DNA from: an uncultured archaeon
GTDB lineage: Archaea; CAYFZR01
Direction of reading: 5' to 3'
Length of the DNA: 64,000 nucleotides
Assembly: GCA_964347835.1 (NCBI GenBank)
Contig: CAYFZR010000032.1
Location: 17,814 to 81,813 of the forward strand
The notes under the pieces were generated by a model. That model ran no database searches. It was not told the DNA's origin and saw only the letters and a list, made by a program, of their open reading frames with translations. Positions 7,435-56,436 of this stretch are shown here, piece after piece. Made by a program: the position numbers and the translations under genes. Every line of letters begins with the position of its first letter. Within the stretch, counting starts at the first letter, position 1.

Positions 7435-8658
7435 TTGGATCCTAAATATGTTTGTCATATGCAAACCCAAATTGTAGGGGGTAACAAGTTGTCAGTTGAA
7501 TTAAAAGATGGAGTTTATTGGGTAGGCGCTATAGATTGGAATATAAGGGATTTTCATGGCTATACAACGCCAAAAGGGACCACATACAACGCCTATCTTA
7601 TAGTGGATGAGAAAATAGTGGTAGTTGATACAGTAAAACACGGATTTTTTGATGATATGCTGAGAGGAATTAAAGAAATTGTAGATCCAAGAGAAATCGA
7701 TTATGTGGTCTCTAATCATGTTGAAAAAGATCACTCAGGCTCCCTATCTGATATAATGAGGTTAGCCAAGAATGCAGAAATTTATGCCACGGGAAGAGGG
7801 AAAGAAGGATTAATAAAATATTTCAAGCAAGATTGGACTTTTAACATCGTTAAAACAGGAGATGAACTAAATATAGGCAAGAAGAATTTGATGTTTATTG
7901 AAGCACCAATGTTGCACTGGCCAGATAGCATGTTTACGTATATAAAAGAAGATCGCATCCTCTTACCCAACGATGCTTTTGGACAGCATATAGCAACTCA
8001 TCAGAGATTTGACGATGAGGTAAAGGATGTAATGGAAGATGCGGCTACCTATTATGCAAATATATTAATGCCCCTTGCTCCTTTGATACTGAAGAAGATA
8101 GAAGAAATCGTGAATTTGGGCATAAAAATAGATATGATCGGTCCCAGTCATGGCATAATATGGCGTAAGGAACCTGAGAAAATAATCAACGCGTACATCG
8201 ATTGGAGCAAGGGAGTTGCAAGAGACAAGATTTTAATTGTCTACGATACAATGTGGGGAAGCACAGAAAAAATAGCCAGATCCATTCTACGAGGAATAAA
8301 CAAAGAAGGCGTAGAAGCTAAATTGTTGAAGTTGAGAGAAAATCATAGAAGCGCTGTCATAAAGGAAGTTCTAGACTCCAAGGTCGTTCTCGTGGGGTCG
8401 CCGACTATTAACAATGGAATATTTCCTACTGTAGCAGATTTCTTGACTTATTTGAAAGGATTGAAGCCTAAGAAAAAGATAGGAGCAACTTTCGGATCTT
8501 ACGGTTGGGGAGGCGGCGCTTGTAAGGTAATAGAAAAAGAATTGAGAGAAATCGGTTTTGAAGTCTTAGATGCAAATTTAGAGTTTAAATACGTTCCAGA
8601 TGAAAGCGAGTTGGAAAGATGCGTCGAATTTGGAAAAGAACTTGTAAAGAAGTTGTAA
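7435..8658 (+). CDS. fprA: Flavodiiron protein (FprA-type; metallo-beta-lactamase-like diiron domain plus flavodoxin domain)
   Basis: H-x-E-x-D-H diiron motif HVEKDHSGSL; C-terminal flavodoxin fold VLVGSPTINNG; true start may be the internal Met (MQTQ...). Confidence 0.85.
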   Translation: MDPKYVCHMQTQIVGGNKLSVELKDGVYWVGAIDWNIRDFHGYTTPKGTTYNAYLIVDEKIVVVDTVKHGFFDDMLRGIKEIVDPREIDYVVSNHVEKDHSGSLSDIMRLAKNAEIYATGRGKEGLIKYFKQDWTFNIVKTGDELNIGKKNLMFIEAPMLHWPDSMFTYIKEDRILLPNDAFGQHIATHQRFDDEVKDVMEDAATYYANILMPLAPLILKKIEEIVNLGIKIDMIGPSHGIIWRKEPEKIINAYIDWSKGVARDKILIVYDTMWGSTEKIARSILRGINKEGVEAKLLKLRENHRSAVIKEVLDSKVVLVGSPTINNGIFPTVADFLTYLKGLKPKKKIGATFGSYGWGGGACKVIEKELREIGFEVLDANLEFKYVPDESELERCVEFGKELVKKL

Positions 8659-8853
8659 ATGTGGTAAGAGCCGATAATTGATAATAATTGAAACACGAAC
8701 GTCATATTAATAATGTCATATTGAATAGTTACAAGGGATACGAAAATAGGCGTATTATGTAATAAATATGACTAAATTCATAGAATAATGTATATAAATA
8801 AGTAAATATCTGTGTGAATATCGTTAAATTTATAAAGAAAAAGGAGGGTGTGA

Positions 8854-9357
8854 ATGAGTAAAACTGAAAAAAATTTGGAAACGGCATTCGCTGGAGAGAG
8901 CCAAGCAAATAGAAAGTACCTCGCATATGCAAAGAAAGCCGACGATGAAGGTTATAGACAAATAGCAAGGCTTTTCCGAGCAGTAGCAGCGGCAGAAACT
9001 ATTCATGCACACAATCATTTTAAAATTATGGAAGGGGTTAAAACTACGGATGAAAATTTGAGGGCAGCGATAGAAGGAGAACATTATGAGTTTACGAAGA
9101 TGTACCCAGAATTTATAGAGCAGGCCAATAAAGAAGAGAATAAAAGAGCAGCCAGGAGTTTCAATTGGGCCAATGAGGTCGAGAGAATACATGGAGAACT
9201 CTACACTAACTTTCTAGAAAGGTTGAAAGCAGGCGAGGAACTCGAAGAAAAGGATTTCTATGTGTGCGGGGTTTGTGGTTATACCTTAGAGGGAGAGTTG
9301 CCAGATAACTGTCCTATATGCAGAGCGGTTAAAGACAAGTTTATAAAAATAGAGTAG
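8854..9357 (+). CDS. rbr: Rubrerythrin
   Basis: NLETAFAGESQANRKY ferritin-like diiron motifs plus C-terminal rubredoxin-like CGVCGY...CPICR; GGAGGG RBS. Confidence 0.9.
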   Translation: MSKTEKNLETAFAGESQANRKYLAYAKKADDEGYRQIARLFRAVAAAETIHAHNHFKIMEGVKTTDENLRAAIEGEHYEFTKMYPEFIEQANKEENKRAARSFNWANEVERIHGELYTNFLERLKAGEELEEKDFYVCGVCGYTLEGELPDNCPICRAVKDKFIKIE

Positions 9358-9369
9358 AGGTGTGTCTTT

Positions 9370-9534
9370 ATGAGTGAAAAATGGGAATGTACAATATGCG
9401 ATTGGGTTTATGATCCCGATGAAGGAGATCCCGATGGCGGAATAGAGCCGGGAACTCCCTTTGAAGATATACCAGATGACTGGGTATGTCCTGTTTGTGG
9501 AGCGCCAAAAGATATGTTTGAAAAAATAGAATGA
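9370..9534 (+). CDS. rub: Rubredoxin (54 aa; below the ORF-track size cutoff)
   Basis: Own translation [54 protein letters not shown]; two CxxC pairs with the classic WVCPVCG motif. Confidence 0.85.
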
Positions 9535-9543
9535 GGTGATAGA

Positions 9544-9924
9544 ATGGCTGTCGAGAAATCTTGCGAAGAAGATCTCTTTTGTGGTTTGAATAAACCCGCA
9601 GACATAAAAAGTATGACCGATCTGGAGAAAAAACATACTCCAATAATCGAGGCACCATCTAAGGTCAAAGAAGGAGAAGTATTCGAAGTTAACGTGGAAG
9701 TTGGAAAACTTATGAAACATCCGAATGAAATTGGACATTTCATCCAATGGATAGAACTTTATTCTGGAGATACTTTTCTAACAAGGGTTGATTTGACTCC
9801 AGAACTTACCGAACCAAAGATTACTGTTCCTGTGCGCTTGACTCACACCCATTCATTGAAAACGGTTATAAGATGCAATCTTCACGGTCTGTGGGAGAAC
9901 ACCAAAGAAATTAATGTAGAGTAG
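9544..9924 (+). CDS. sor: Superoxide reductase (desulfoferrodoxin/neelaredoxin family) with short N-terminal extension
   Basis: EKKHTPIIEAP motif and C-terminal CNLHGLWEN Cys-ligand motif. Confidence 0.8.
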   Translation: MAVEKSCEEDLFCGLNKPADIKSMTDLEKKHTPIIEAPSKVKEGEVFEVNVEVGKLMKHPNEIGHFIQWIELYSGDTFLTRVDLTPELTEPKITVPVRLTHTHSLKTVIRCNLHGLWENTKEINVE

Positions 9925-9954
9925 ATCTAAGGGCAAAGATAAGTTTTTTTTTAA

Positions 9955-10398
9955 ATGAATAACGAGAGGTCTGATATGGCGATTGATAAAGAAAAATTAA
10001 TAGAATTACTTAATGACGATCTTTCTTGGGAATATACTGCATTGGTGCAGTATGTACAACACAGCGGAGTTATAACAGGCGCTGAATATGGAGATATTGT
10101 AAAAGAGATTAGAATCCACGCCACAGAGGAAATGCAGCATGCTATAGTACTGGTTGATCAAATCGATTATTTAGGAGGTACACCAACGACAAAAGTATAT
10201 CCTGCCAAAACTTCAGGAGATTCCGTGGAGATGTTGCAGCAAGATCTGGATGGAGAGGAAGACGCGATAAGGAGATATAAAGAACGAATCGAGCAGGCAG
10301 AAGAACTTAAAGAGTTCGCTTTGGCTCAAAAACTTCGCGAAATATTAGCAATGGAGCAAGAACACGCCATGGATCTTAAATTTGCCTTAGGAAAGTAA
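9955..10398 (+). CDS. Ferritin-like diiron-domain protein (bacterioferritin/Dps-like)
   Basis: E...EEMQH...E pattern resembling Bfr four-helix-bundle ligands. Confidence 0.5.
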   Translation: MNNERSDMAIDKEKLIELLNDDLSWEYTALVQYVQHSGVITGAEYGDIVKEIRIHATEEMQHAIVLVDQIDYLGGTPTTKVYPAKTSGDSVEMLQQDLDGEEDAIRRYKERIEQAEELKEFALAQKLREILAMEQEHAMDLKFALGK

Positions 10399-10520: not shown

Positions 10521-11336
10521 TTGCTAATTTCAAGTCCCTTTGTTAGACTAAGGCGAGTAATCACATGCCCTCCTTTATATCTTGGGTTAGATCCCATAGA
10601 CGAGATATCTAAAACATGGTCAAGAAAAAATGATTTTGATAAGGATTTAGCCATGGAACAGCATGAAAACTTTATAGACACATTGAAATCAGAGAGGGTG
10701 AAGGTTGAAATTTTAGAGGCTTCGCCCGGAAAAGGAAACCAAACCTTTGTGAGAGACGTGGGATTTTCATTTAGAGAAGGAATTTTAATAGGCCGAATGA
10801 GAGAATCTACAAGACAAGGAGAAGAAAATCTTCTCTCTGAATTTATTGATCGTTTAAATCTTCCTATCATCCATAGAATAAAGAAAGGATTTCTAGAGGT
10901 AGGTGATATTCTAGCAATTGATGAAGAAAAAATATTCATTGGACATGGAAACAGAACAGATTTTGAAGGAATACAAGAAATTAAAACCCTTTTAGAAAAT
11001 TTAGAAATAAATACAATCCATTTAAAAAAAGAATTTGTTCATTTGGATTTAGCAATGAACGTTGTGGATGATTCAACCATCATAATGTTTCCAAATGCAT
11101 TTAATGAAGAAATAGAAATTTCTGACTGGAACATCATATTTGCAAACGAAAGAGAATACCTAACGATACCGGCCAATGTATTACTTCTAAAAAAAGGAAG
11201 GATTATCGCATCAGAAGAGAACTATCTGACCAATAAATCATTGGAAAAGGAAGGTATAGATGTATTGACGGTTAAAATTAACGAACTTTTAAAGGCAGGA
11301 GGAGGGCCACGCTGTCTAACTCTTCCAATTTTTTGA
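10521..11336 (+). CDS. Amidinotransferase-superfamily enzyme (DDAH/arginine deiminase-like, pentein fold)
   Basis: C-terminal GGGPRCLTLPIF with catalytic Cys a few residues from the end, as in DDAH; real start probably the internal Met (MEQHENF). Confidence 0.6.
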   Translation: MLISSPFVRLRRVITCPPLYLGLDPIDEISKTWSRKNDFDKDLAMEQHENFIDTLKSERVKVEILEASPGKGNQTFVRDVGFSFREGILIGRMRESTRQGEENLLSEFIDRLNLPIIHRIKKGFLEVGDILAIDEEKIFIGHGNRTDFEGIQEIKTLLENLEINTIHLKKEFVHLDLAMNVVDDSTIIMFPNAFNEEIEISDWNIIFANEREYLTIPANVLLLKKGRIIASEENYLTNKSLEKEGIDVLTVKINELLKAGGGPRCLTLPIF

Positions 11337-11514: not shown

Positions 11515-12240
11515 ATGGGAGAAGATAGAAAAAATGAAGGTTGTATGGTTTGTGCAAAGGAACTCGAGTATCTTGAAAAGCCCGTTGATGTGAGGTGCAT
11601 TTACTGCGGAGAAGAAGATCAAGGATATTTTATCTGCAAAGAAGGACATTATGTCTGCGAGGAATGCCATTCGAAGGGAGCAATAGATCTTATAACTCAA
11701 TTCTGCCTATCTTCAGAATCAAAAAACCCCTTTGAGATGGCAAACGCAATAATGAAACATCCAAAAATACCCATGATCGGTCCGGAGCATCATGCAATGA
11801 TAGCAGGTGTTTTGGTTACTGGTTATCGAAACTTAACAGGAAAAGGGACCGAAGATGATATTATAGAGGCGATAAGGCGTGGTAGTAAAGTTCCCGCTGG
11901 TTATTGCGGTTTATATGGTGCAGATGGGGTTGCTATTGCTACCGGCATAGCCTTATGCGTTATCTTAGGCTCAACGCCTCTTTCTGATAAAGAAAGATCT
12001 ATAGCAAATACGATGACTTCTCGTGCTCTCGCGGCAGTAGCGAATGCAAGAGGGGCAAGATGCTGTAAAAGAAGCACTTGGATTGTTTTAGATATAGCCG
12101 TTCAATATATAAGGGATGTTTTAGGTGTTGATTTAGAGTACGTTCCTCTTTCAGAAATAAAGTGTGATTATAGTGGTAGGAATAAATACTGCAGCAAAGA
12201 AGATTGCATATTTTATGTATCTGATAATACCAAAGATTAA
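11515..12240 (+). CDS. Cys-rich hypothetical protein (N-terminal paired CxxC zinc-ribbon-like motifs, CC and C-terminal Cys cluster)
   Basis: CMVCAKE...CIYCGEE...CKEGHYVCEECH...CCK...CDYSGRNKYCSKEDC; good RBS AAAAGGAGA. Confidence 0.4.
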   Translation: MGEDRKNEGCMVCAKELEYLEKPVDVRCIYCGEEDQGYFICKEGHYVCEECHSKGAIDLITQFCLSSESKNPFEMANAIMKHPKIPMIGPEHHAMIAGVLVTGYRNLTGKGTEDDIIEAIRRGSKVPAGYCGLYGADGVAIATGIALCVILGSTPLSDKERSIANTMTSRALAAVANARGARCCKRSTWIVLDIAVQYIRDVLGVDLEYVPLSEIKCDYSGRNKYCSKEDCIFYVSDNTKD

Positions 12241-12252
12241 GGGGAAATCTTT

Positions 12253-14103
12253 GTGAGTATAACGGTTTATAGTTTAAAAACATGTCCTTACTGTAGGCTG
12301 GTAGAGAGTTTTCTAGATGACCATGGTGTAGAATACGAGAGAATAATGGTTGACGAGTTGGGTGGAGAAGAGCAAAAAAAAGCAATAGCAGAGGCGTATC
12401 GATTAAGCGGTCAACGAAGTTTTCCCGTTATTCGCATAAACGAGAGGAGCATCATCGGCTTCGATGAAGCAAGAATGAGGAAGGCTTTAAATCTTAAGGC
12501 AAAGGACATTGTCCTTCCGAAATCGCCAGTTGTGGAAGAAAAGAAGAAAGATCTTCAGAAATACTATGATATCTTTAAAAAGCAGGCTGACAAAACAGGA
12601 TACCTCCTAAACCCCAATCGCGATTTTGTAGAGAGGATTTTGCTTGGCCTCATGGAAAATAAAGAGCGTTATGGCTATGCTACTTGTCCTTGTAGTTTGG
12701 CTAGCGGCAAAATAGAAGAGGACAAAGACTTAATCTGTCCATGCGCAAATAGAGATCTGCATCTCCAGAGATACGGTCGCTGCCTCTGCGGACTTTATAT
12801 AACGGAAGACTATAATCCTTATGATCCAACTAGCCCCTTGTGTATAGCAGAATATCATGAAGAAATGCTCGAACACGAGATTTCCACACCAACTTACGTT
12901 AAGGTATTTGGCTATTCTTTGAGAGGAGTAGATGAAGAAAGCATTAAAAATAACTTCGAAAAAGTCGCAAGTTTGTGTGAAATAAATTTAGAGGAGATAA
13001 AATGGAAAGAGAAGACTGCCTCCGTTTCTAAAACCTTCGAGGGTAAGTATCGATTAATTCTTAAAATGGATATTTCCAAGGATTTCTACAATTATCAAGT
13101 ATGGACGATTTCAATTAAAGAATCTCCGGCTGAAATCTTCAATTTAATCGATCATTTGGCCCCATTAGAATTACCTGATGTTCACAATCAACTCTTTGTG
13201 TTAGATATCCTATTGAACGAAGAGGAGTTTTTTTACGAAAATTTAGACTATTTTATGCCAAAAATCGATAAAGTGGGAAGTAAAATCTTAGATGGTATTC
13301 AGGTAATGAGCAGTGATCAGGAAAAAAGGATAGGGAGAGAAAGATACTTGGTTTCTCCCATGCAAGAGAGAATCGTAGACGATATAATAACAATAGAATC
13401 CAACTACCACCTACTCCATCTGGAGAAGCAAAAATACATTTTGATCTCTGATCGTCTAAGTCGAATTGAGGAAGAAACAGTATCGAAATTGGGATCTGTA
13501 AGCATTGGTCTGGCACAAGCAGACCATGATATTCTAAAAGATTGGATGCATGACATTAGCAATAGTTTTTCTGAAATAGCAGGCATTACTGAAGAAGTGA
13601 ACCACCATTTTCTCGATGCAACCTCCCACAGAAACATTTTAGAAACTATCTTCGTCGGTTGGAAAGAGCGCGAGGTAGATGCGTTACCATTAATATCGAC
13701 TTCCATTCTAAGTAAGGTTAAAGGCATCAAAGAAGACTACGAGACACTATATAATCGAATAGATGGTATACGTAAGGAAATGGAGGACATCATCAATATT
13801 TTACGAACTAAAATAGAGTTAATCCAACAAGAACAGAGTTTTGATCTTCAGAAAAGCATGCATGCTACTGCCAAGACGCAACTGGATTTACAAAAAGCAG
13901 TCAAAGGAGTGTATGTATTTTTGGTGGCATTTTATTTCACTGAACTTGCACTGATAATTTTCGAGGCAATGGAGGCAAGAGGAATAATTCATATAGATCC
14001 TTCCATTCCTGCTGCACTTTTCATTCCAGTAGCGATATTTTTAGGATGGATACTATCGGGAAAGGCAGAAGAAATGATTATGGGGAAAAGAAAACACTTA
14101 TAA
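12253..14103 (+). CDS. Fusion protein: glutaredoxin-like domain (CPYC) plus ferredoxin:thioredoxin-reductase-like catalytic domain (CPC..CPC..CLC) plus about 400-aa coiled-coil-rich domain ending in two TM helices
   Basis: SLKTCPYCRLV; GYATCPCSLASGKIEEDKDLICPCANRDLHLQRYGRCLCGLY; C-terminal GVYVFLVAFYFTELALIIF and IPAALFIPVAIFLGWILSG. Confidence 0.6.
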   Translation: MSITVYSLKTCPYCRLVESFLDDHGVEYERIMVDELGGEEQKKAIAEAYRLSGQRSFPVIRINERSIIGFDEARMRKALNLKAKDIVLPKSPVVEEKKKDLQKYYDIFKKQADKTGYLLNPNRDFVERILLGLMENKERYGYATCPCSLASGKIEEDKDLICPCANRDLHLQRYGRCLCGLYITEDYNPYDPTSPLCIAEYHEEMLEHEISTPTYVKVFGYSLRGVDEESIKNNFEKVASLCEINLEEIKWKEKTASVSKTFEGKYRLILKMDISKDFYNYQVWTISIKESPAEIFNLIDHLAPLELPDVHNQLFVLDILLNEEEFFYENLDYFMPKIDKVGSKILDGIQVMSSDQEKRIGRERYLVSPMQERIVDDIITIESNYHLLHLEKQKYILISDRLSRIEEETVSKLGSVSIGLAQADHDILKDWMHDISNSFSEIAGITEEVNHHFLDATSHRNILETIFVGWKEREVDALPLISTSILSKVKGIKEDYETLYNRIDGIRKEMEDIINILRTKIELIQQEQSFDLQKSMHATAKTQLDLQKAVKGVYVFLVAFYFTELALIIFEAMEARGIIHIDPSIPAALFIPVAIFLGWILSGKAEEMIMGKRKHL

Positions 14104-14180: not shown

Positions 14181-14363
14181 ATGATTCCAGTGGTAGATCA
14201 TGAAAAATGCGATGGCGATGGAATTTGTGTAGATGTATGTCCAACGGAAGTATTTGAACTCGAAGGAGGAAAATCTATCGTCGCTCGCCCAGAAGATTGT
14301 ATAGAGTGCGAAGTATGTATTGACGAATGTCCTCAAGCAGCGATAACGTTAGAAGAAGAATGA
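14181..14363 (+). CDS. fdx: 2x[4Fe-4S] ferredoxin (60 aa)
   Basis: CDGDGICVDVCP and CIECEVCIDECP cluster motifs. Confidence 0.85.
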   Translation: MIPVVDHEKCDGDGICVDVCPTEVFELEGGKSIVARPEDCIECEVCIDECPQAAITLEEE

Positions 14364-14444: not shown

Positions 14445-14573
14445 GTAGAAACAGCTCCTCTACAGATGAAAAGGAGAAAATTTATCCGAAATTATCTTAT
14501 GGTTCAAACAAAAAATTTTTAAACTCCTAGTTTGGAGATATAGTCGAACCAAGTTAATGAGAGAGAAATAATA

Positions 14574-14819
14574 ATGAAAAAAACAAATCCTGAGCCTGAT
14601 AAATCAATAGATTTAATTGGATTGTACTGTCCAATACCCATTTTTAAAACAAGAGAGGCATTGGATGGGATGGAGGTAGGGGAGATTTTAGAGGTTCTTG
14701 CTGACGACCCGGCTGCAGAAGAAGATTTGAGGCGTTTTGCGAAAAGAACCGGTCAAGAACTTCTTGAAATTAAAAAGGAAGGAGATGTCCTTCGTTTCAT
14801 TTTTAAAAAAAATAAATAA
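14574..14819 (+). CDS. tusA: TusA-like sulfurtransferase (SirA/YedF/YeeD family)
   Basis: CPIP active-site motif in GLYCPIPIFKTREAL. Confidence 0.8.
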   Translation: MKKTNPEPDKSIDLIGLYCPIPIFKTREALDGMEVGEILEVLADDPAAEEDLRRFAKRTGQELLEIKKEGDVLRFIFKKNK

Positions 14820-15221
14820 ATGAGAGTTATATTAAGGAGTTTGTTATTTATGCCTGAACATAAAAAAAAGATAATGTATGTCCAAACAAGCGGAGTAAAC
14901 ACTCCTGAAAGGCTTTATTCGCCATTTGTATTGGCACAAACCGCTAAAGCCATGGACATAGAACCTATAATTTATTTCCTTGGAATGGGATTGACAGTGA
15001 TTAAAAAAGGCGAAGCAGAGAAGATACAGTTGGGCAGTTTTCCCAGTCTAAAGGAAGTAATGGACCAGACGGCTAAAATGGGTGTCAAATTCTACGTATG
15101 CGAACAGAGTACTCAGTTATTGAACATGGAAAGAGGAGACTTCATAGAAGAAGCCAAAATAGTTGGAGCCGCTACCCTGAATGATTTAGTCTTAGAAGTA
15201 GATGGAGTAATGTGGTTTTAA
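14820..15221 (+). CDS. DsrE/DsrF-like family protein
   Basis: about 120-aa core with conserved Cys (YVCEQS); typical TusA partner; start probably internal Met (MYVQTSG). Confidence 0.55.
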   Translation: MRVILRSLLFMPEHKKKIMYVQTSGVNTPERLYSPFVLAQTAKAMDIEPIIYFLGMGLTVIKKGEAEKIQLGSFPSLKEVMDQTAKMGVKFYVCEQSTQLLNMERGDFIEEAKIVGAATLNDLVLEVDGVMWF

Positions 15222-15222
15222 A

Positions 15223-16383
15223 ATGAGAAAGGTATACATGGACTATGCTGCATCGTCGCCTACAGATCCGCGCGTTATAGAGGCGATGGTTCCTTATTAT
15301 AATGAAAAATATGGAAATCCATCCTCTTTGTATACTTTTGCGCATGAAGATAAAGTAGCTCTACAACAATCGAGAAAAAAGGTGGCAGAACTAATAGGGG
15401 CAAAAGATAGTGAAATTATCTTTACCTCCGGTGCAACGGAAAGTATCAACCTAGCATTAAAAGGAACTGCCTACAGAAATAAAACGAAAGGAAATCATAT
15501 CATTACTTCAAAAATAGAGCACATTTCCGTGTTGAATACATGTAAATATCTTCAGACGGAAGGTTTTAATATTTCATATATACCGGTAGATGAATACGGA
15601 ATGGTCGATGTAGAAAAGTTAAAGGAAGAGATATCGGAAGAAACCATACTCATCTCCATCATCTATGCGAACAACGAGATTGGAACAATACAGCCCATTA
15701 AGGAGATAGGCGAGATTGCGAGTGACAAAGAAATTTACTTCCACGTAGATTCTGTGGCGTCCTTGGGTAAGGTTCCAATAGACGTTGTAAGGGATGATAT
15801 AAGTTTATTATCAATGTCTTCAAACGATATCTACGGTCCTAAAGGTAAAGGCGCCCTGTATATTAAAAAAAGAACCAAAATAGCCCCGATTATACATGGA
15901 GGCGGACAGGAAGAGGGATTGCGATCCGGCACCGAGGACATACCCGGTATCGTGGGTATGGGCAAGGCCGCTGAATTCATAAAAGAAGAAATGAGTGAAG
16001 AAAGTAAAAGACTGACAAAATTAAGGGATAAGATAATAAAAGGCACTCTTGAGAACATAGACCACTGCTATCTGAATGGGCACCTTACAGAAAGACTTCC
16101 AAACAATATAAATCTCAGATTCAACTATATTGAAGGAGAATCTTTAATCTTAAGCCTTGATATGTATGGAATTTCTGCCTCGACCGGCTCTGCGTGTACT
16201 TCAAAGACTTTAGAGCCTTCACATGTACTGACTGCAATAGGCTTGCCGCATGAACTAGCCCACGGATCATTACAACTCACACTCGGCAAGTCAAATGATG
16301 AGGAAGATGTGAAATATTTATTAGAAGTTTTACCAGAAGTAGTAGAGAAGTTAAGAGAGTTATCTCCATTAACACCGAGGTGA
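15223..16383 (+). CDS. iscS: IscS/NifS-like cysteine desulfurase homolog lacking the PLP-binding lysine (SSND instead of SGHK)
   Basis: Fold-type I aminotransferase; SMSSNDIYGPKGKGALY aligns to E. coli IscS SFSGHKIYGPKGIGALY; catalytic-loop Cys retained (STGSACTS). Confidence 0.8.
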   Translation: MRKVYMDYAASSPTDPRVIEAMVPYYNEKYGNPSSLYTFAHEDKVALQQSRKKVAELIGAKDSEIIFTSGATESINLALKGTAYRNKTKGNHIITSKIEHISVLNTCKYLQTEGFNISYIPVDEYGMVDVEKLKEEISEETILISIIYANNEIGTIQPIKEIGEIASDKEIYFHVDSVASLGKVPIDVVRDDISLLSMSSNDIYGPKGKGALYIKKRTKIAPIIHGGGQEEGLRSGTEDIPGIVGMGKAAEFIKEEMSEESKRLTKLRDKIIKGTLENIDHCYLNGHLTERLPNNINLRFNYIEGESLILSLDMYGISASTGSACTSKTLEPSHVLTAIGLPHELAHGSLQLTLGKSNDEEDVKYLLEVLPEVVEKLRELSPLTPR

Positions 16384-16769: not shown

Positions 16770-16919
16770 GTGGATTGTGAACTCTGTGGAAAAGAAATTT
16801 CCCCGGAAGATTGCTTATTTGCCATGCATAAAAAGGTTATAGATGATAAGGAGTATGTATTTTGCTGCTCAATTTGTCTAGAGTCCTTTAAGAAGAAAGA
16901 GGAAGAGGTGAAAGAATGA
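16770..16919 (+). CDS. small Cys-rich ORF (49 aa, GTG start) between iscU and nfu; not in ORF track
   Basis: Own translation VDCELCGKEISPEDCLFAMHKKVIDDKEYVFCCSICLESFKKKEEEVKE; its TGA overlaps the ATG of nfu (ATGA). Confidence 0.3.
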   Translation: MDCELCGKEISPEDCLFAMHKKVIDDKEYVFCCSICLESFKKKEEEVKE

Positions 16920-17146
16920 AAGAAGAAGTGGAAAAGGTAATCGATGAGTACATCAGACCAAGTCTCAAAATGGATGGAGGAGATATCGAATTAATTGGCA
17001 TAGACGAGGAAAACGATATTGTAAAGGTAAGATTGGTCGGTGCCTGCGCCGGCTGTCCGATGTCCCAGTTTACGGCTCTCAATGTTGTTGAGGGCACATT
17101 GAAAAGGTTTGTTAAGGACACAATAATAGTGGAGACAGTGATTTAG
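16916..17146 (+). CDS. nfu: Nfu/NifU C-terminal-domain Fe-S cluster carrier
   Basis: GACAGCPMS CxxC motif; 76 aa. Confidence 0.75.
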   Translation: MKEEVEKVIDEYIRPSLKMDGGDIELIGIDEENDIVKVRLVGACAGCPMSQFTALNVVEGTLKRFVKDTIIVETVI

Positions 17147-17349: not shown

Positions 17350-18060
17350 CTAACCTCCATAGGTATCTCTAACATCATAAAAAGGCTTATCTAAATCCTC
17401 GATTATCTTACAGGGTATATCTAACGCTTTTTTAGACTTTTTAATCAAAACGTGATCGCTCGTAGCAATACATTCAAAACCTAAGAGCTTCTTATCGCAA
17501 TGTTTTGAAGTAACAGCGGTACCGTTTAAACCTCTTTCATCTATATGTTCTTTTATTTTGCTCGATAATTCTCCGCTTTTCCTTACAGGACTGTCAAAAA
17601 CAAAAACCATATTTTTAGGAGGATAAATATTCAAAAGATCTAAAATAAGATTAATTGCCGTCATCGTATACTCACTCATCTTATACTTTCCGAAAGAAGC
17701 CTCAATGTCTCTAATGAAGGAATCGTCACATTTTATCAAAGGTTTATCCATCAGTATACATTCCGTAGTTATTAAAACGTTGTATCCGTCAATCCCTAAA
17801 TCCACGTTTATTAAATCATTCATTTTTATACGTCTTTTTCTAAGTTGTTCTGCCTCTTTCTTAGAAAATATAGCCCTAGCCAAAAGATTTCTCTCTTTTA
17901 GAGAAAGCAAATGATGGTCTGAAACAAATTTCAAGGCGCTCTTCTTTTTGTAACCGCTTTCTAACAAAAATCTAAGTTCCTGAGCAGCTTTCAATACTTT
18001 ATTCCATGTAAATGGCTGGTCTAAAGGGTTTTGCATGGGCTCTCTTATTTTTTGGGTCAT
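17350..18060 (-). CDS. conserved hypothetical protein (archaeal DUF434-like)
   Basis: Track ORF; 5' end overlaps the leuS 3' end, so the true start is probably an internal Met. Confidence 0.35.
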
Positions 18061-54126: not shown

Positions 54127-56436
54127 TCACTGAATGATAAAGGTGGTCGTCACTATACTGGCACTTACATTGAAATTGTAGCCGTCTTTGATGACGTCTA
54201 TCACATTGGCTTTGTATGTTCCCGCTGCTTGAGTTCTCGAGGTCTTCCACTGCATTACCGCATCGCCGTTGGTATCACTGAACCCCTGAAGAGATTTCAC
54301 CACTAAACCGTTGGGATCGGAGATATCTAGGAACACCTGTGCACCGGAGATGGGCACTCGAACTGTATCTACTTCTTCTACGGTGTGGGCCACGATTCCT
54401 ACTGTATCACGCGCCCTGAATGTATCTGTCTGGGTCACCAGATTTCCTCTCTTATCGACTGACCAGGTGGTCAGACTGTCTACGAAGAGATCTGGCATCG
54501 GTGGTGTAACCTTCTTTCCCCATTCTGTGGATGTCATCACGTATGGTTCTGCCATGCCTGTATTCATCCACGCATCCAGCAGGTTTATACCTTCCTCAGC
54601 TAGGAATGGATTCTGACCGTTGTTGCCTAGATAGAGGAACTGTATGTACTCCCAGCTCGTTGGCTGGTAGAGAAGGTCAATAGTCGCGTACACGGCGTGA
54701 GTTGGTGGATTCAGCGTGAACTCGTCCCAGTAGTTATATTTACCGCCTGCTACAGGGTTTCCGTATTGATCCGCTGGCACAGGGAGTGCGTTTCGAATCT
54801 TTGCTTCGTCGAAGCTCATCTCGTAGGGCGGAATGCGGTTGTCCTTGGCAACTTTGTTGTTCAGGACGAAATGGAAGGACTCGTGGTAGGTTCCGGGTGC
54901 CTGAGCCGATAGATTTCCAAGCGTATAGTCCACCGCACCAGTAATGCGGTCGTAGCTCAACGGAAGGTCTGAGCTATATCCAAATCCTATGAGCTGGTTA
55001 GCCCATTCTTGCGTCATGGCATAGTGGGCCTCATATATCTTGGTGTTTGGGTCATTAAGGTCCAAAATGGTTTTTACTTGTGTCGGCGTGCCGCCGATGT
55101 TTACTGTTATATTGCCGTATTTTCCGTCTTCACGCAGGAGTTCTCCGTCACTATCATACCACTTGATACTAAGCCACATCCTGCGTCCTTCTGGATAGCC
55201 AGAGATAAGCTTGTGCCCGGCATGATTGACAACTTTTAGAATGTTACCGCTTAACGAGAGCGTGGCTGCCTCACTTAGCTGCTTCATGGCCCTAGTCTTG
55301 CCGTCATTTAGCGCTGCAATCTGGGTCGAACTGAGATCGCCGCCGATTCTTAGCTTGCCTTGGGCATCTAGATACTGTATTGCGTCTGGCATCCAGTAGT
55401 TGCCACCAGTCATGTCGTGTAGCGGCAAGTCCTTTCTGATCTTCGGGTTCTTGTTGCAGCCCTGGCCGTTCACGGGGCGAAGGTGGCAGGTCTGGCATGT
55501 GTAGTACCTTGGTGTATTGTCCTCGTAATTTCCGCCTGTTCCGGCTAAGATGGCGCTCTCATAACCGGCCTTGAGAGCCCCGTCCTGGAGGTCAACGGGA
55601 AGATTCATGTAATCAGAGACCAGCACAGTGTCCAACATGCTTGCCTTCCACTCACTGTATGTTCTCTCCACAATCCCATACTGATAGGGGAAGTTGTTAA
55701 AGGCCGCCTTTCCTTCTACTGGCGAACCGAGCGTCCCGTTGTATGTTCCAGGCTCAAGCGGTACCTGGGCTCCGTTGTTATGTGCTAAATCACCTACTGC
55801 TGGGTTTGAGACGTCATGGCAAGTTCCGCAGAGATCACCTGAGCGGTAGAACTTGGACTGCAAGAACTGATGCCTGGCTTCTGCGTCGATATATGGTCCC
55901 AGCTTATCAGAGCCATCCCAGAGAACGTACATTCCGCTTCCATAGTATCCGACTAAGTTACCGTCGCTTATATTGTAGGCTATAAACGGTGGATTCTGAA
56001 CACCAATGTGTTCTGATTGGTCAGGATTGGTCAACTTATGGCATAAGTCGCATTCGACGCCGTCTCCATCACTTGGTCTCAATGCTGATCCATCAGTCGG
56101 TGTAGAACGTCCTTCCACCCATCCGGTCACGCTGTGGCAGCGGATGCAAAGATCTCCAGCTCCATCAAAGTCCTGTTCGGCTATAGCCAAAGTCGCCCAG
56201 AATATCGGATCGCGTCCGGCGTTTGCCATCATGCTTCCCCGCCAGTTGTGAGCAGGTTCCACTGTAATGTCATATCCACCGTGGCAGTTGTCGCATTTGT
56301 CGACTGACTCTATATTCCCTACTTCTCCTGGCTGTGTGCCTGGCATCTTGATTTCGTTGGGCACAATATCAGCTGCAAATGCAACAAAACCAACCAAAAG
56401 CATTAAAATCGTTGCTAAAAAAATCCTCTTTTTCAT
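54127..56436 (-). CDS. Multiheme c-type cytochrome (5 CxxCH) with N-terminal signal/TM and about 450-aa heme-free beta-rich C-terminal domain; atypically GC-rich gene
   Basis: CDNCH, CIRCH, CDLCH, CGTCH, CQTCH; N-terminus MKKRIFLATILMLLVGFVAFA; local GC about 50-55% versus about 35% flanks. Confidence 0.8.
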   Translation of the reverse strand: MKKRIFLATILMLLVGFVAFAADIVPNEIKMPGTQPGEVGNIESVDKCDNCHGGYDITVEPAHNWRGSMMANAGRDPIFWATLAIAEQDFDGAGDLCIRCHSVTGWVEGRSTPTDGSALRPSDGDGVECDLCHKLTNPDQSEHIGVQNPPFIAYNISDGNLVGYYGSGMYVLWDGSDKLGPYIDAEARHQFLQSKFYRSGDLCGTCHDVSNPAVGDLAHNNGAQVPLEPGTYNGTLGSPVEGKAAFNNFPYQYGIVERTYSEWKASMLDTVLVSDYMNLPVDLQDGALKAGYESAILAGTGGNYEDNTPRYYTCQTCHLRPVNGQGCNKNPKIRKDLPLHDMTGGNYWMPDAIQYLDAQGKLRIGGDLSSTQIAALNDGKTRAMKQLSEAATLSLSGNILKVVNHAGHKLISGYPEGRRMWLSIKWYDSDGELLREDGKYGNITVNIGGTPTQVKTILDLNDPNTKIYEAHYAMTQEWANQLIGFGYSSDLPLSYDRITGAVDYTLGNLSAQAPGTYHESFHFVLNNKVAKDNRIPPYEMSFDEAKIRNALPVPADQYGNPVAGGKYNYWDEFTLNPPTHAVYATIDLLYQPTSWEYIQFLYLGNNGQNPFLAEEGINLLDAWMNTGMAEPYVMTSTEWGKKVTPPMPDLFVDSLTTWSVDKRGNLVTQTDTFRARDTVGIVAHTVEEVDTVRVPISGAQVFLDISDPNGLVVKSLQGFSDTNGDAVMQWKTSRTQAAGTYKANVIDVIKDGYNFNVSASIVTTTFIIQ

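What the first reader, a model, noticed from the sequence alone, without database searches (positions are those of the whole stretch)
15223..16383. IscS homolog naturally lacking the PLP-binding lysine (SGHK to SSND) inside a TusA-DsrE-IscS-IscU-Nfu cluster
Alignment of SMSSNDIYGPKGKG to the canonical IscS SFSGHKIYGPKG puts Asp202 (nt 15826-15828) where the Schiff-base lysine should be. The preceding His is also replaced. The catalytic-loop Cys (STGSACTS) and the IscU partner are retained. A natural Lys-to-Asp substitution with loss of PLP and desulfurase activity has been described for Archaeoglobus fulgidus IscS in the IscS-IscU complex literature. Finding the same state here, next to TusA and DsrE-like sulfur-relay proteins, suggests this Fe-S assembly system takes sulfur from another source, such as sulfide or persulfide carried by TusA/DsrE, rather than from cysteine.
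Basis: partly seen in the sequence, partly recalled or inferred. Interest (0 to 1): 0.55.

Follow-up and report, generated by a model that had tools for sequence, protein, structure and literature searches.

The report
Lysine-less IscS with TusA/DsrE sulfur relay
This archaeal gene encodes a known type of "dead" cysteine desulfurase that still partners with the iron-sulfur scaffold IscU, and comparison with about 150 other genomes shows that such lysine-less copies, unlike active ones, nearly always sit beside TusA/DsrE sulfur-carrier genes, which suggests where their sulfur comes from.

Summary
ORF 15223-16383 encodes a 386-aa IscS/NifS homologue with Asp202 (GAT, 15826-15828) where the PLP lysine should be. 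It is not a one-off. It is an orthologue (55% identity, E 1e-140) of Archaeoglobus fulgidus IscS2, the crystallised, inactive Lys-to-Asp IscS, and it belongs to a large, apparently monophyletic archaeal clade. All 238 closest database proteins carry SSN[D/E]. They have also lost His205, Gln183 and Arg354 (E. coli numbering), but keep the cofactor-pocket residues and the loop cysteine.

The new result is the gene context. TusA and/or DsrE flank 54 of 61 Lys-less loci, against 0 of 70 Lys-containing loci. Three other Lys-less variants (SANS, SAQG, AGNQ) have the same partners in different gene orders, and A. fulgidus IscS2 itself has a DsrE gene directly upstream.

The window operon is tusA-dsrE-iscS*-iscU-TRASH-nfu.

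Best reading: a cysteine-independent Fe-S assembly unit in which TusA/DsrE persulfide is passed through the pseudo-desulfurase's Cys325 to IscU. That step is inferred, not shown. Whether a canonical desulfurase exists elsewhere in the genome could not be tested.

The parts
14574..14819 (+). tusA: 81-aa TusA-family sulfur carrier with the CPxP cysteine (Cys19) and Asp44/Asp45/Asp51
   Evidence: Pfam PF01206, 83.9 bits. The closest solved homologue is E. coli TusA/YhhP, E 1e-10. C19, P20, P22, D44, D45 and D51 are invariant in 53 orthologues, and all 53 match Pfam TusA. It scores below the NCBIfam TusA and YedF equivalog cut-offs.
14820..15221 (+). dsrE-like sulfur carrier: 133 aa from the ATG at 14820, or 123 aa from the ATG at 14850 as in relatives, with a single invariant Cys in the VCEQS motif
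   Evidence: Pfam PF02635 and PF13686. The closest solved structure is 3mc3, a DsrE/DsrF-like protein, E 4e-16. All 26 orthologues match Pfam DsrE and DrsE_2, and the Cys is invariant.
15223..16383 (+). iscS* (misS-like): Lys-less pseudo-cysteine-desulfurase, orthologue of A. fulgidus IscS2
   Evidence: E 1.2e-140 to 4eb5, 55% identity. Pfam Aminotran_5 1e-80. It falls inside the SSN[D/E] clade of the NJ tree.
15826..15828 (+). Asp202 codon (GAT) at the position of the PLP Schiff-base lysine (E. coli K206). Asn201 (15823-15825) replaces His205.
15757..15759 (+). Ala179 in place of Gln183 (E. coli numbering). In the top 150 family representatives, 12 have Ala here, including most Lys-less variants.
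16273..16275 (+). Gln351 in place of Arg354. Arg354's role in binding the substrate carboxylate is stated from general knowledge. The position is V, L or Q in all 238 clade members.
16195..16197 (+). Cys325 of the flexible loop STGSACTS (E. coli Cys328; Cys321 in AfIscS, where it is the fourth ligand of the [2Fe-2S] cluster). Invariant in the clade.
   Evidence: ligand role from PMC7585200 and PMC13066941
16388..16765 (+). iscU: 125-aa scaffold with Cys33, Asp35, Cys58 and His101-Cys102
   Evidence: Pfam NifU_N 2.6e-52. TIGR03419 scores above its cut-off. Residues checked. IscU follows the Lys-less gene in 57/66 loci.
16770..16919 (+). 49-aa Cys-rich TRASH-domain protein (GTG start, 4-nt overlap with nfu).
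   Evidence: ORF. Pfam Arc_trans_TRASH 32.7 bits against a cut-off of 27. Homologues directly follow iscU in 31/62 Lys-less loci with enough downstream flank, and a homologue was found in none of the 80 control loci or the 5 Methanoperedens Lys-type loci.
16916..17146 (+). nfu: 76-aa NifU C-terminal-type Fe-S carrier with a CAGC motif
   Evidence: Pfam PF01106 1.3e-25. It is adjacent only in the Hydrothermarchaeota loci and one Bathyarchaeia locus.
14181..14363 (+). 60-aa 2x[4Fe-4S] ferredoxin, 210 nt upstream of tusA. Possible electron donor and a peripheral part.
   Evidence: Pfam Fer4 families. A small ferredoxin lies upstream in 7/61 Lys-less loci against 2/80 control loci. This enrichment is weak.
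12253..14103 (+). 616-aa glutaredoxin + ferredoxin:thioredoxin-reductase-beta-like + DUF3422 protein. Linked only in this lineage, so peripheral.
   Evidence: Pfam. The same gene occupies the same position in the 87%-identical Hydrothermarchaeota MAG. It is rare elsewhere.
14516..14523 (+). TTTTTAAA, an A/T-rich TATA-like element 51-58 nt upstream of the tusA ATG. Possible archaeal promoter of the six-gene unit (inference only).
   Evidence: Sequence read. Downstream gene spacings are 0, 1, 4, 4 and -4 nt, and the unit ends against a convergent gene at 17350-18060.

Best explanation
The gene encodes an A. fulgidus-IscS2-type pseudo-desulfurase. It has the IscS fold and keeps the cofactor pocket and the mobile loop cysteine (Cys325). 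It has lost the Schiff-base lysine and three other catalytic or substrate-binding residues, so it cannot take sulfur from cysteine. It works as the partner of IscU in a six-gene operon, tusA-dsrE-iscS*-iscU-TRASH-nfu. The proposed mechanism has four steps. (1) TusA, with DsrE, picks up sulfane sulfur as a cysteine persulfide from environmental or metabolic polysulfide, thiosulfate or oxidised sulfide. (2) TusA docks on the IscS* dimer as TusA docks on E. coli IscS, but the sulfur flows the other way, from TusA Cys19-SSH to IscS* Cys325. (3) The Cys325 loop swings to IscU, delivers the sulfur and serves as the fourth ligand of the nascent [2Fe-2S] cluster, with reducing equivalents possibly from the upstream ferredoxin. 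(4) The TRASH protein may handle the metal, and Nfu carries the finished cluster away. Shown here: the identity of the proteins, the coordinated loss of catalytic residues, purifying selection on the SSND motif, and the specific and recurrent genomic linkage to TusA/DsrE. Taken from the literature on the A. fulgidus orthologue: absence of desulfurase activity and the Cys ligand role. Inferred: the direction of sulfur flow, the source that loads TusA/DsrE, and the roles of ferredoxin and TRASH.
For: Orthology to the characterised inactive AfIscS2: E 1e-140 with an identical SSNDIYGPKG, and inactivity plus the Cys-ligand role as reported in PMC7585200 and PMC8918507. In 238 clade proteins the changes are K206->D/E, H205->N, Q183->A (227 of 238) and R354->V/L/Q. 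H104, D180, T76, S203 and C328 are invariant, and T243 is T or S. Codons vary synonymously at both N201 and D202. Context in one representative genome per species: TusA directly upstream in 52/61, TusA or DsrE in 54/61, IscU downstream in 57/66. Pfam confirms TusA in 53/53 and DsrE in 26/26. Controls: 0/4 Methanoperedens Lys-type loci and 0/66 metagenomic Lys-type loci have TusA or DsrE, Fisher p = 1.7e-29. Other Lys-less variants with different gene orders show the same partners: AGNQ as IscS-IscU-DsrE-TusA (L137), SAQG as IscS-DsrE-TusA, and SANS as YHS-x-TusA-DsrE-IscS-IscU. A. fulgidus has DsrE directly upstream of IscS2, and Ferroglobus has TusA-IscS*-IscU. Natural TusA-IscS fusion proteins exist, which supports physical pairing of the two families. 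In the E. coli IscS-TusA structure Cys328 and TusA Cys19 lie about 4 A apart (PMC2854127). The six genes are packed at 0 to 4 nt or overlap.
Against: There is no biochemical evidence for TusA-to-IscS* transfer in any organism. Persulfide flow in the characterised E. coli pair runs the other way. The TusA-IscS fusions found are Lys-type, so TusA pairing is not exclusive to dead enzymes. Seven Lys-less loci with adequate flank lack TusA and DsrE, including the two Borrarchaeota and the Sifarchaeum (Asgard) loci. E. coli TusA-contact residues on IscS are not conserved in either class, so docking cannot be inferred from sequence. The Lys-less sample is dominated by Bathyarchaeia and the control set is largely bacterial, so the Fisher p-value overstates independence. 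The published hypothesis for AfIscS, free sulfide used directly, needs no carrier. A canonical desulfurase elsewhere in the genome cannot be excluded.
Confidence: 0.55

Rival explanations
1. Scaffold-only model with free sulfide. IscS* merely stabilises IscU and lends Cys325 as a cluster ligand. Sulfur enters as free HS- from the sulfidic habitat. TusA/DsrE are co-located for another purpose, such as buffering reactive sulfur or feeding thiocarboxylate, tRNA or Moco thiolation through the same hub.
For: This is the hypothesis quoted for AfIscS in PMC8918507. Sulfide can feed IscU in E. coli lacking IscS (PMC13015791) and feeds the SMS system. Seven Lys-less loci, the Asgard ones among them, have IscS*-IscU without TusA or DsrE. 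A. fulgidus has a ThiS-ThiF-TusA-DsrE-TusA cluster nearby, which hints at thiocarboxylate chemistry.
Against: It does not explain why TusA/DsrE linkage is 54/61 for Lys-less copies against 0/70 for Lys-type copies. It also does not explain why the linkage was kept through at least five different gene orders and four different replacements of the lysine. The genes are packed tightly enough for translational coupling with iscS*-iscU.
Confidence: 0.25
2. Scaffold paralogue model. A canonical Lys-containing IscS, SufS or NifS encoded elsewhere in the genome supplies cysteine-derived sulfur, possibly via TusA. IscS* is an auxiliary adaptor.
For: One Lys-less variant (SGSD, L168) is followed by IscU and a second class-V aminotransferase gene. 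M. acetivorans combines a Lys-less IscS1 with an active IscS2. Only 64 kb of this genome is visible.
Against: There is no IscS or SufS paralogue in the window (tblastn), and no other Fe-S or sulfur genes among 40 other ORFs scanned. From my memory of the Pagnier et al. 2014 abstract (paper not held), both A. fulgidus IscS ORFs lack the lysine. None of the 80 genome loci shows a second desulfurase gene within about 6 kb.
Confidence: 0.12
3. Neo-functionalised enzyme. The remodelled pocket (Asn-Asp, Ala, Val/Leu/Gln) binds PMP or PLP non-covalently and catalyses a different reaction. Other Lys-less PMP-dependent aminotransferase-fold enzymes such as ColD and E1 dehydratase (recalled from memory) are a precedent. 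One example would be release or activation of sulfur from a non-cysteine substrate.
For: Cofactor-binding residues are invariant, and Asn201-Asp202 are invariant rather than drifting. AfIscS crystals contain PMP. Purifying selection acts on the new motif.
Against: No activity has been reported for AfIscS, and D199K does not restore activity. The Asp may simply hold the cofactor as a structural element. Other Lys-less variants replace the lysine with S, G, Q or A, which argues against a specific catalytic Asp.
Confidence: 0.06
4. Artefact. A sequencing or assembly error, or a decaying pseudogene.
For: None found.
Against: The ORF is intact. An 87%-identical orthologue with the same operon occurs in independent assemblies. 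All 238 homologues share the motif, and the codons vary synonymously.
Confidence: 0.01

Closest known systems
Archaeoglobus fulgidus IscS2-IscU (PDB 4EB5, 4HVK; D199K variant 4R5F)
   Same: Same SSNDIYGPKG motif, same loss of the Gln183 and Arg354 equivalents, and same retained loop Cys. IscU lies immediately downstream with Cys33, Asp35, Cys58 and Cys102. Identity is 55%, E 1e-140. A DsrE gene directly precedes AF IscS2.
   Different: The window operon adds TusA, a TRASH protein and Nfu. A. fulgidus has only DsrE adjacent, with TusA genes about 6 kb away. In the papers I could read, the A. fulgidus work invoked free sulfide rather than a carrier.
MIS minimal Fe-S system (MisS/MisU), as described in PMC13066941
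   Same: An adjacent IscS-like and IscU-like pair in an anaerobic archaeon, with no HscAB, IscA or Fdx-type ISC accessories.
   Different: MIS is described as lacking carriers and other components and as containing a cysteine desulfurase. Here the 'desulfurase' lacks its catalytic residues, and the operon carries two sulfur carriers, a TRASH protein and an Nfu carrier.
Methanosarcina acetivorans IscS1 (PMC7585200)
   Same: It is reported to lack the catalytic lysine and is suggested to act like AfIscS.
   Different: It coexists with an active IscS2. Its gene context was not examined here.
E. coli IscS-TusA complex (PDB 3LVJ; PMC2854127)
   Same: The same two protein families. TusA Cys19 and the conserved Asp residues are present. 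The mobile IscS cysteine loop reaches both TusA and IscU.
   Different: In E. coli the sulfur comes from cysteine and flows from IscS to TusA for tRNA thiolation and Moco. Here IscS* cannot generate persulfide, so the flow would have to be reversed. The E. coli interface residues are not conserved.
TusA/DsrE sulfur relays of sulfur oxidisers (Rhd-TusA-DsrEFH-DsrC; sHdr-associated TusA/DsrE3; PMC11094781, PMC3397948)
   Same: TusA plus a DsrE-family protein act as a tandem of cysteine-persulfide or thiosulfonate carriers that are loaded without a desulfurase.
   Different: Those relays feed dissimilatory oxidation enzymes. Here the linked acceptor is an Fe-S scaffold pair. The DsrE matches the DsrE2 equivalog only weakly (37 bits against a cut-off of 210).
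SMS (SmsCB) system using sulfide directly (PMC12192291, as cited in PMC13066941)
   Same: A cysteine-independent Fe-S assembly route in anaerobic archaea.
   Different: An unrelated scaffold (SufBC-like) with no known sulfur carrier.

Membership tests
Type I cysteine desulfurase IscS/NifS (EC 2.8.1.7) | Aminotransferase class-V fold and family-level sequence similarity | tested here: met
   Pfam PF00266 1e-80. TIGR03402 'cysteine desulfurase NifS' scores 540.2 against a cut-off of 530.75.
Type I cysteine desulfurase IscS/NifS (EC 2.8.1.7) | PLP Schiff-base lysine (E. coli K206) | tested here: not met
   Asp202.
Type I cysteine desulfurase IscS/NifS (EC 2.8.1.7) | Active-site His205, Gln183 and Arg354 | tested here: not met
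   Asn201, Ala179 and Gln351. The same positions are conserved as H, Q and R in 124-139 of 150 family representatives.
Type I cysteine desulfurase IscS/NifS (EC 2.8.1.7) | Persulfide-forming loop cysteine (C328) | tested here: met
   Cys325 in STGSACTS.
Type I cysteine desulfurase IscS/NifS (EC 2.8.1.7) | Cysteine desulfurase activity | not testable with these tools
   Reported absent for the A. fulgidus orthologue. Not measured for this protein.
Lys-less IscS of the A. fulgidus IscS2 type (pseudo-desulfurase) | SSN[D/E] in place of S(G/A/S)HK, with the loop Cys retained | tested here: met
Lys-less IscS of the A. fulgidus IscS2 type (pseudo-desulfurase) | Groups phylogenetically with AfIscS2 | tested here: met
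   In the NJ tree, 72 SSN* sequences plus two variants form one clade of 74 leaves, and the clade contains both the window protein and 4eb5. There is no bootstrap support, so the tree is only a rough guide.
Lys-less IscS of the A. fulgidus IscS2 type (pseudo-desulfurase) | Adjacent IscU with three Cys and one Asp ligand set | tested here: met
   Cys33, Asp35, Cys58 and Cys102. IscU is downstream in 57/66 loci.
Lys-less IscS of the A. fulgidus IscS2 type (pseudo-desulfurase) | Non-covalent PMP/PLP binding and [2Fe-2S] ligation by the loop Cys | not testable with these tools
   Known only from the A. fulgidus structures.
MIS (two-component MisS/MisU minimal system) | Adjacent IscS-like and IscU-like genes | tested here: met
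MIS (two-component MisS/MisU minimal system) | No additional carrier or accessory components; MisS is a cysteine desulfurase (definition in PMC13066941) | tested here: not met
   TusA, DsrE, TRASH and Nfu are in the same operon, and the catalytic residues are absent.
TusA sulfur-carrier family (PF01206) | Pfam model above its cut-off, the CPxP cysteine and conserved Asp residues | tested here: met
   83.9 bits against a cut-off of 28.6. Cys19, Asp44, Asp45 and Asp51 are invariant.
TusA sulfur-carrier family (PF01206) | Equivalog of E. coli TusA, YedF or YeeD | tested here: not met
   53-55 bits against cut-offs of 78-79; 21 bits against 147.5 for YeeD.
DsrE/DsrF-like family (PF02635, PF13686) | Pfam model above its cut-off and a conserved active-site cysteine | tested here: met
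   65.9 bits against 22.7. The Cys is invariant in 26 orthologues. The DsrE2 equivalog cut-off is not reached.
TRASH metal-binding domain (PF08394) | Pfam model above its cut-off and the Cys pattern | tested here: met
   32.7 bits against 27. The pattern CxxC...C...CCxxC is conserved in about 35 loci. Metal binding was not tested.
Nfu-type Fe-S carrier (PF01106) | NifU C-terminal domain with a CxxC motif | tested here: met
   1.3e-25. The CAGC motif is visible in the translation.

The most novel reading that the evidence does not exclude
Lys-less IscS proteins are persulfide shuttles rather than leftovers. Together with a dedicated two-cysteine TusA subfamily, a DsrE-like carrier and often a TRASH protein, they form a cysteine-independent, carrier-fed Fe-S assembly machine (TusA/DsrE-SSH to IscS* Cys to IscU). 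This machine would be the main ISC-type route in Bathyarchaeia, Hadarchaeota, Hydrothermarchaeota, Archaeoglobi and relatives. That would answer the open question of where the sulfur in the A. fulgidus IscS-IscU cluster comes from, and it would reverse the textbook IscS-to-TusA direction of flow.
Probability: 0.45. Interest if true: 0.8.

Novelty: new variant of a known kind. Interest (0 to 1): 0.6.

Why it matters
The review PMC8918507 explicitly leaves open how [2Fe-2S] assembly proceeds on A. fulgidus IscS-IscU without a desulfurase. The MIS system is called the least-studied Fe-S machinery, with unknown accessory factors. The comparative result here names concrete candidates: TusA, DsrE and a TRASH protein. 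They are linked specifically to the inactive enzymes across at least six archaeal lineages, including the crystallised model organism. That turns the question into a set of simple in-vitro transfer experiments. The result also flags a systematic annotation error. These proteins pass the NCBIfam 'cysteine desulfurase NifS' threshold, so metabolic reconstructions of Bathyarchaeia, Hadarchaeota and others may wrongly credit them with cysteine-derived sulfur mobilisation.

Tried and rejected
1. Sequencing error or pseudogene: rejected.
2. Second desulfurase in the window: tblastn with the IscS* protein found nothing, and Pfam scans of 40 other window ORFs found no Fe-S or sulfur genes.
3. Conservation of the E. 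coli TusA-docking residues (W45, E49, D52, R55, D65, R220, R237) on IscS: not conserved in either the Lys-less or the Lys-type group, so uninformative.
4. My first iterated HMMs for TusA, DsrE and IscU drifted onto fusion proteins and overlapping frames. I replaced them with single-round phmmer on start-codon ORFs and validated the result with Pfam.
5. Regex motif calls missed variants. I replaced them with alignment-based calls.
6. Ferredoxin as a specific component: 7/61 Lys-less loci (upstream) against 2/80 control loci, which is too weak. The Grx-FTR-DUF3422 protein and Nfu are restricted to the Hydrothermarchaeota lineage plus one or two others, so I treat all three as peripheral.
7. Look-up of the exact window protein (P0001) in the assembly index: not on record.
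8. The primary A. fulgidus papers (Pagnier 2014, Yamanaka 2013) are not held, so I relied on secondary descriptions and on my memory of the abstract.
9. Six literature searches found no paper linking TusA/DsrE to Lys-less archaeal IscS. Subscription reviews, such as the TusA review by Tanabe, Leimkuhler and Dahl, could not be checked.
10. A TusA:IscS*:IscU complex model was not attempted, because structure prediction takes a single chain only.
Full report
**Observation**

The ORF at 15223-16383 (+) is intact and encodes 386 aa. The best solved-structure match is A. fulgidus IscS2 (4eb5/4hvk, E 1.2e-140), which carries the identical SSNDIYGPKG. The engineered D199K variant 4r5f reads SSNK, and Lys-containing desulfurases read S(A/T)HK at the same columns.

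**Extent of the active-site change**

I aligned the protein to E. coli IscS. That sequence was recalled from memory, and it is self-consistent at K206, C328, H104, D180, Q183, R354, N155, T76, S203, H205 and T243.
- Replaced: K206->D202, H205->N201, Q183->A179, R354->Q351.
- Retained: T72, H100, N151, D176, S199, T237 (cofactor ring and phosphate contacts, plus the Asn155 equivalent) and the loop cysteine C325.

The roles I assign to individual residues come from general knowledge of IscS, not from a tool.

Across 238 proteins from two searches of the 5.8-billion-protein set, the pattern is nearly uniform:

| E. coli position | State in the clade |
|---|---|
| K206 | D or E in all natural members (the single Lys is a 100%-identical A. 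fulgidus IscS2 entry, presumably the engineered D199K variant) |
| H205 | N in 238 |
| Q183 | A in 227 |
| R354 | V, L or Q in all |
| N155 | mostly G, S or P (the window keeps N) |
| H104, D180, T76, S203, C328 | invariant |
| T243 | T or S |

Codons at the Asp site (GAC 40, GAT 24, GAG 1) and the Asn site (AAC 44, AAT 21) vary synonymously among 65 species. The motif is therefore held by purifying selection. It is not an error and not decay.

**How large the group is**

- All 120 best hits to the window protein are SSND or SSNE.
- The closest is an 87%-identical protein from a Candidatus Hydrothermarchaeota MAG with the same gene order, so the window most likely comes from that phylum.
- A scan of one genome per GTDB species found 314 relatives. 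Of the best 80, 70 are Lys-less of this type. They come from Bathyarchaeia, Hadarchaeota, Hydrothermarchaeota, Geothermarchaeales, Methanocellales, Thermoplasmata, Archaeoglobi and Asgard archaea.
- At 50% clustering the clade collapses to one or two clusters among mostly Lys-type representatives. Other Lys-less variants appear (SSSA, SANS, SGSD, SAQG, SAQQ, SSGP, AGNQ), and nearly all of them also carry Gln183->Ala.
- A neighbour-joining tree without bootstrap puts all SSN* sequences, including A. fulgidus IscS2 and the window protein, in one clade. That clade nests among the other Gln183Ala and Lys-less lineages.

**What is already known**

The Lys->Asp state, the lack of desulfurase activity, the failure of D199K to restore activity, the PMP/PLP ambiguity, and the [2Fe-2S] cluster ligated by three IscU cysteines plus the IscS cysteine are all described for A. 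fulgidus. M. acetivorans IscS1 is noted to share the substitution. The review PMC8918507 states that how the cluster is assembled without a desulfurase is an open question, and it relays the hypothesis that free sulfide is the source. As a single-gene observation, the finding is therefore a new member of a known kind.

**Gene context: the new part**

Spacings are 0, 1, 4, 4 and -4 nt. A 210-nt A/T-rich gap lies upstream and a convergent gene lies downstream.

Among the species-representative loci with at least 700 nt of upstream flank:
- TusA lies directly upstream on the same strand in 52 of 61 Lys-less loci.
- A DsrE-family gene is present upstream in 26 of 61.
- One or the other is present in 54 of 61.
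- IscU follows in 57 of 66 loci with adequate downstream flank.

Pfam independently confirms all 53 TusA and all 26 DsrE calls.

In contrast, none of 4 Methanoperedens Lys-type loci has TusA or DsrE within 2.5 kb. None of 66 Lys-type loci retrieved from metagenomes with the nearest Lys-type relatives has them either. Fisher's exact test gives p = 1.7e-29. The value is inflated by shared ancestry and by a largely bacterial control set.

Evidence that does not rest on that one clade:
- The only Lys-less gene in the control set (AGNQ, L137) is followed by IscU-DsrE-TusA.
- A SAQG variant is followed by DsrE-TusA.
- A SANS variant sits in YHS-x-TusA-DsrE-IscS-IscU.
- In A. fulgidus a DsrE gene directly precedes IscS2, and Ferroglobus placidus has TusA-IscS*-IscU.

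Linkage has thus been kept through at least five gene orders and four different replacements of the lysine.

Exceptions:
- Seven Lys-less loci, including Borrarchaeota and Sifarchaeum, have IscS*-IscU without TusA or DsrE.
- A Thermoplasmata ASQD/E subgroup has neither IscU nor TusA.
- An SGSD variant is instead paired with IscU and a second class-V aminotransferase gene.

**Accessory parts**

- **TRASH ORF.** The window copy passes the Pfam Arc_trans_TRASH threshold. Homologues directly follow iscU in 31 of 62 Lys-less loci, and none was found in the 85 Lys-type loci.
- **TusA.** The partners keep Cys19 and the Asp residues implicated in E. coli sulfur transfer. In 51 of 53 they carry a second cysteine five residues upstream. 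The window and its closest relative have Leu there.
- **Peripheral genes.** Nfu and the Grx-FTR-DUF3422 protein are confined mainly to the Hydrothermarchaeota lineage. A small ferredoxin is only weakly enriched, 7/61 against 2/80.

**Mechanism**

Shown here or taken from the literature:
- The protein cannot perform PLP-dependent C-S cleavage, because four catalytic or substrate-binding residues are gone (shown here).
- The orthologue is inactive (literature).
- It keeps the mobile cysteine that, in the A. fulgidus complex, ligates the IscU cluster (literature).
- In E. coli, the equivalent loop cysteine lies about 4 A from TusA Cys19.
- TusA-IscS fusion proteins exist in nature, so the two families pair physically. 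Those fusions are Lys-type.

Inferred: in the Lys-less systems TusA, helped by DsrE, is the sulfur donor. It would load Cys325 by trans-persulfidation, and Cys325 would pass the sulfur to IscU. I put this at about 0.55.

Rivals:
- Free sulfide acting on IscU, with IscS* as scaffold and ligand only: 0.25.
- A canonical desulfurase elsewhere in the genome: 0.12.
- A new PMP-dependent activity: 0.06.

**What could not be done**

- The rest of the genome could not be scanned for a Lys-type desulfurase.
- No complex prediction was possible.
- The E. coli docking residues are not conserved in either class, so they say nothing.
- Six literature searches found no description of the TusA/DsrE linkage, but subscription reviews were not covered.

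**Verdict**

The added value is a specific, recurrent association of the inactive enzymes with TusA/DsrE carriers and a TRASH protein. This differs from the published two-component picture of MIS. It also gives the unanswered sulfur-source question a testable answer.

Noticed in passing
It is conserved directly after iscU in about half of the Lys-less loci and was found in no Lys-type locus.
   Followed up: yes
window 14574-14819; alignment A3: TusA partners of Lys-less IscS carry a second cysteine (DCxGLxCP) in 51 of 53 species. The window and its Hydrothermarchaeota relative have Leu at that position. E. coli TusA has Ala there (recalled from memory).
   Followed up: partly
window 15223-16383: The protein scores above the NCBIfam TIGR03402 'cysteine desulfurase NifS' cut-off (540.2 against 530.75). 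Database names for relatives read 'cysteine desulfurase NifS', which is probably a systematic mis-annotation of an inactive clade.
   Followed up: partly
window 7435-10398 (+): An oxygen-detoxification cluster lies just upstream: a flavodiiron-type protein (ODP + flavodoxin), rubrerythrin, desulfoferrodoxin and a ferritin-like protein, followed by a DDAH/arginine-deiminase-like gene (10521-11336). It is syntenic with the related MAG.
   Followed up: partly
L001/L006 3321-5892 (Hydrothermarchaeota MAG), compared with window 11515-12240: The 87%-identical relative carries an extra divergent cluster (DsrE, TusA, DsrE/DsrH, a TusA-DsrE fusion, thioredoxin/DsrH) plus a TrmB regulator. The window has a DUF5714 gene at that position.
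   Followed up: no
L166 45-3241 (A. fulgidus AE000782): A ThiS-ThiF-TusA-DsrE-TusA-pyridine nucleotide-disulfide oxidoreductase cluster lies about 6 kb upstream of IscS2. It may be a thiocarboxylate sulfur relay fed by the same carrier families.
   Followed up: no
L068, L073, L075, L078, L080 (Thermoplasmata): A sister group of Lys-less IscS homologues carries ASQD/ASQE at the lysine site and has neither IscU nor TusA/DsrE nearby. Its function is unclear.
   Followed up: no
L168 3897-6635: A Lys-less SGSD variant is followed by IscU and then a second class-V aminotransferase gene. It may be a pseudo-desulfurase paired with a real desulfurase.
   Followed up: no
proteins P0155 and P0250: Natural fusions of TusA to Lys-containing IscS exist, one N-terminal and one C-terminal.
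   Followed up: partly
window 54127-56436 (-): A 768-aa ORF has a weak cytochrome c7-type multihaem match. The 516-aa ORF at 376-1926 has no Pfam match.
   Followed up: no
window 17350-18060 (-): A DUF434/DUF5616 gene lies convergent to the operon. It is also adjacent in the Hydrothermarchaeota relatives and in Hecatella (L031). Its function is unknown.
   Followed up: no
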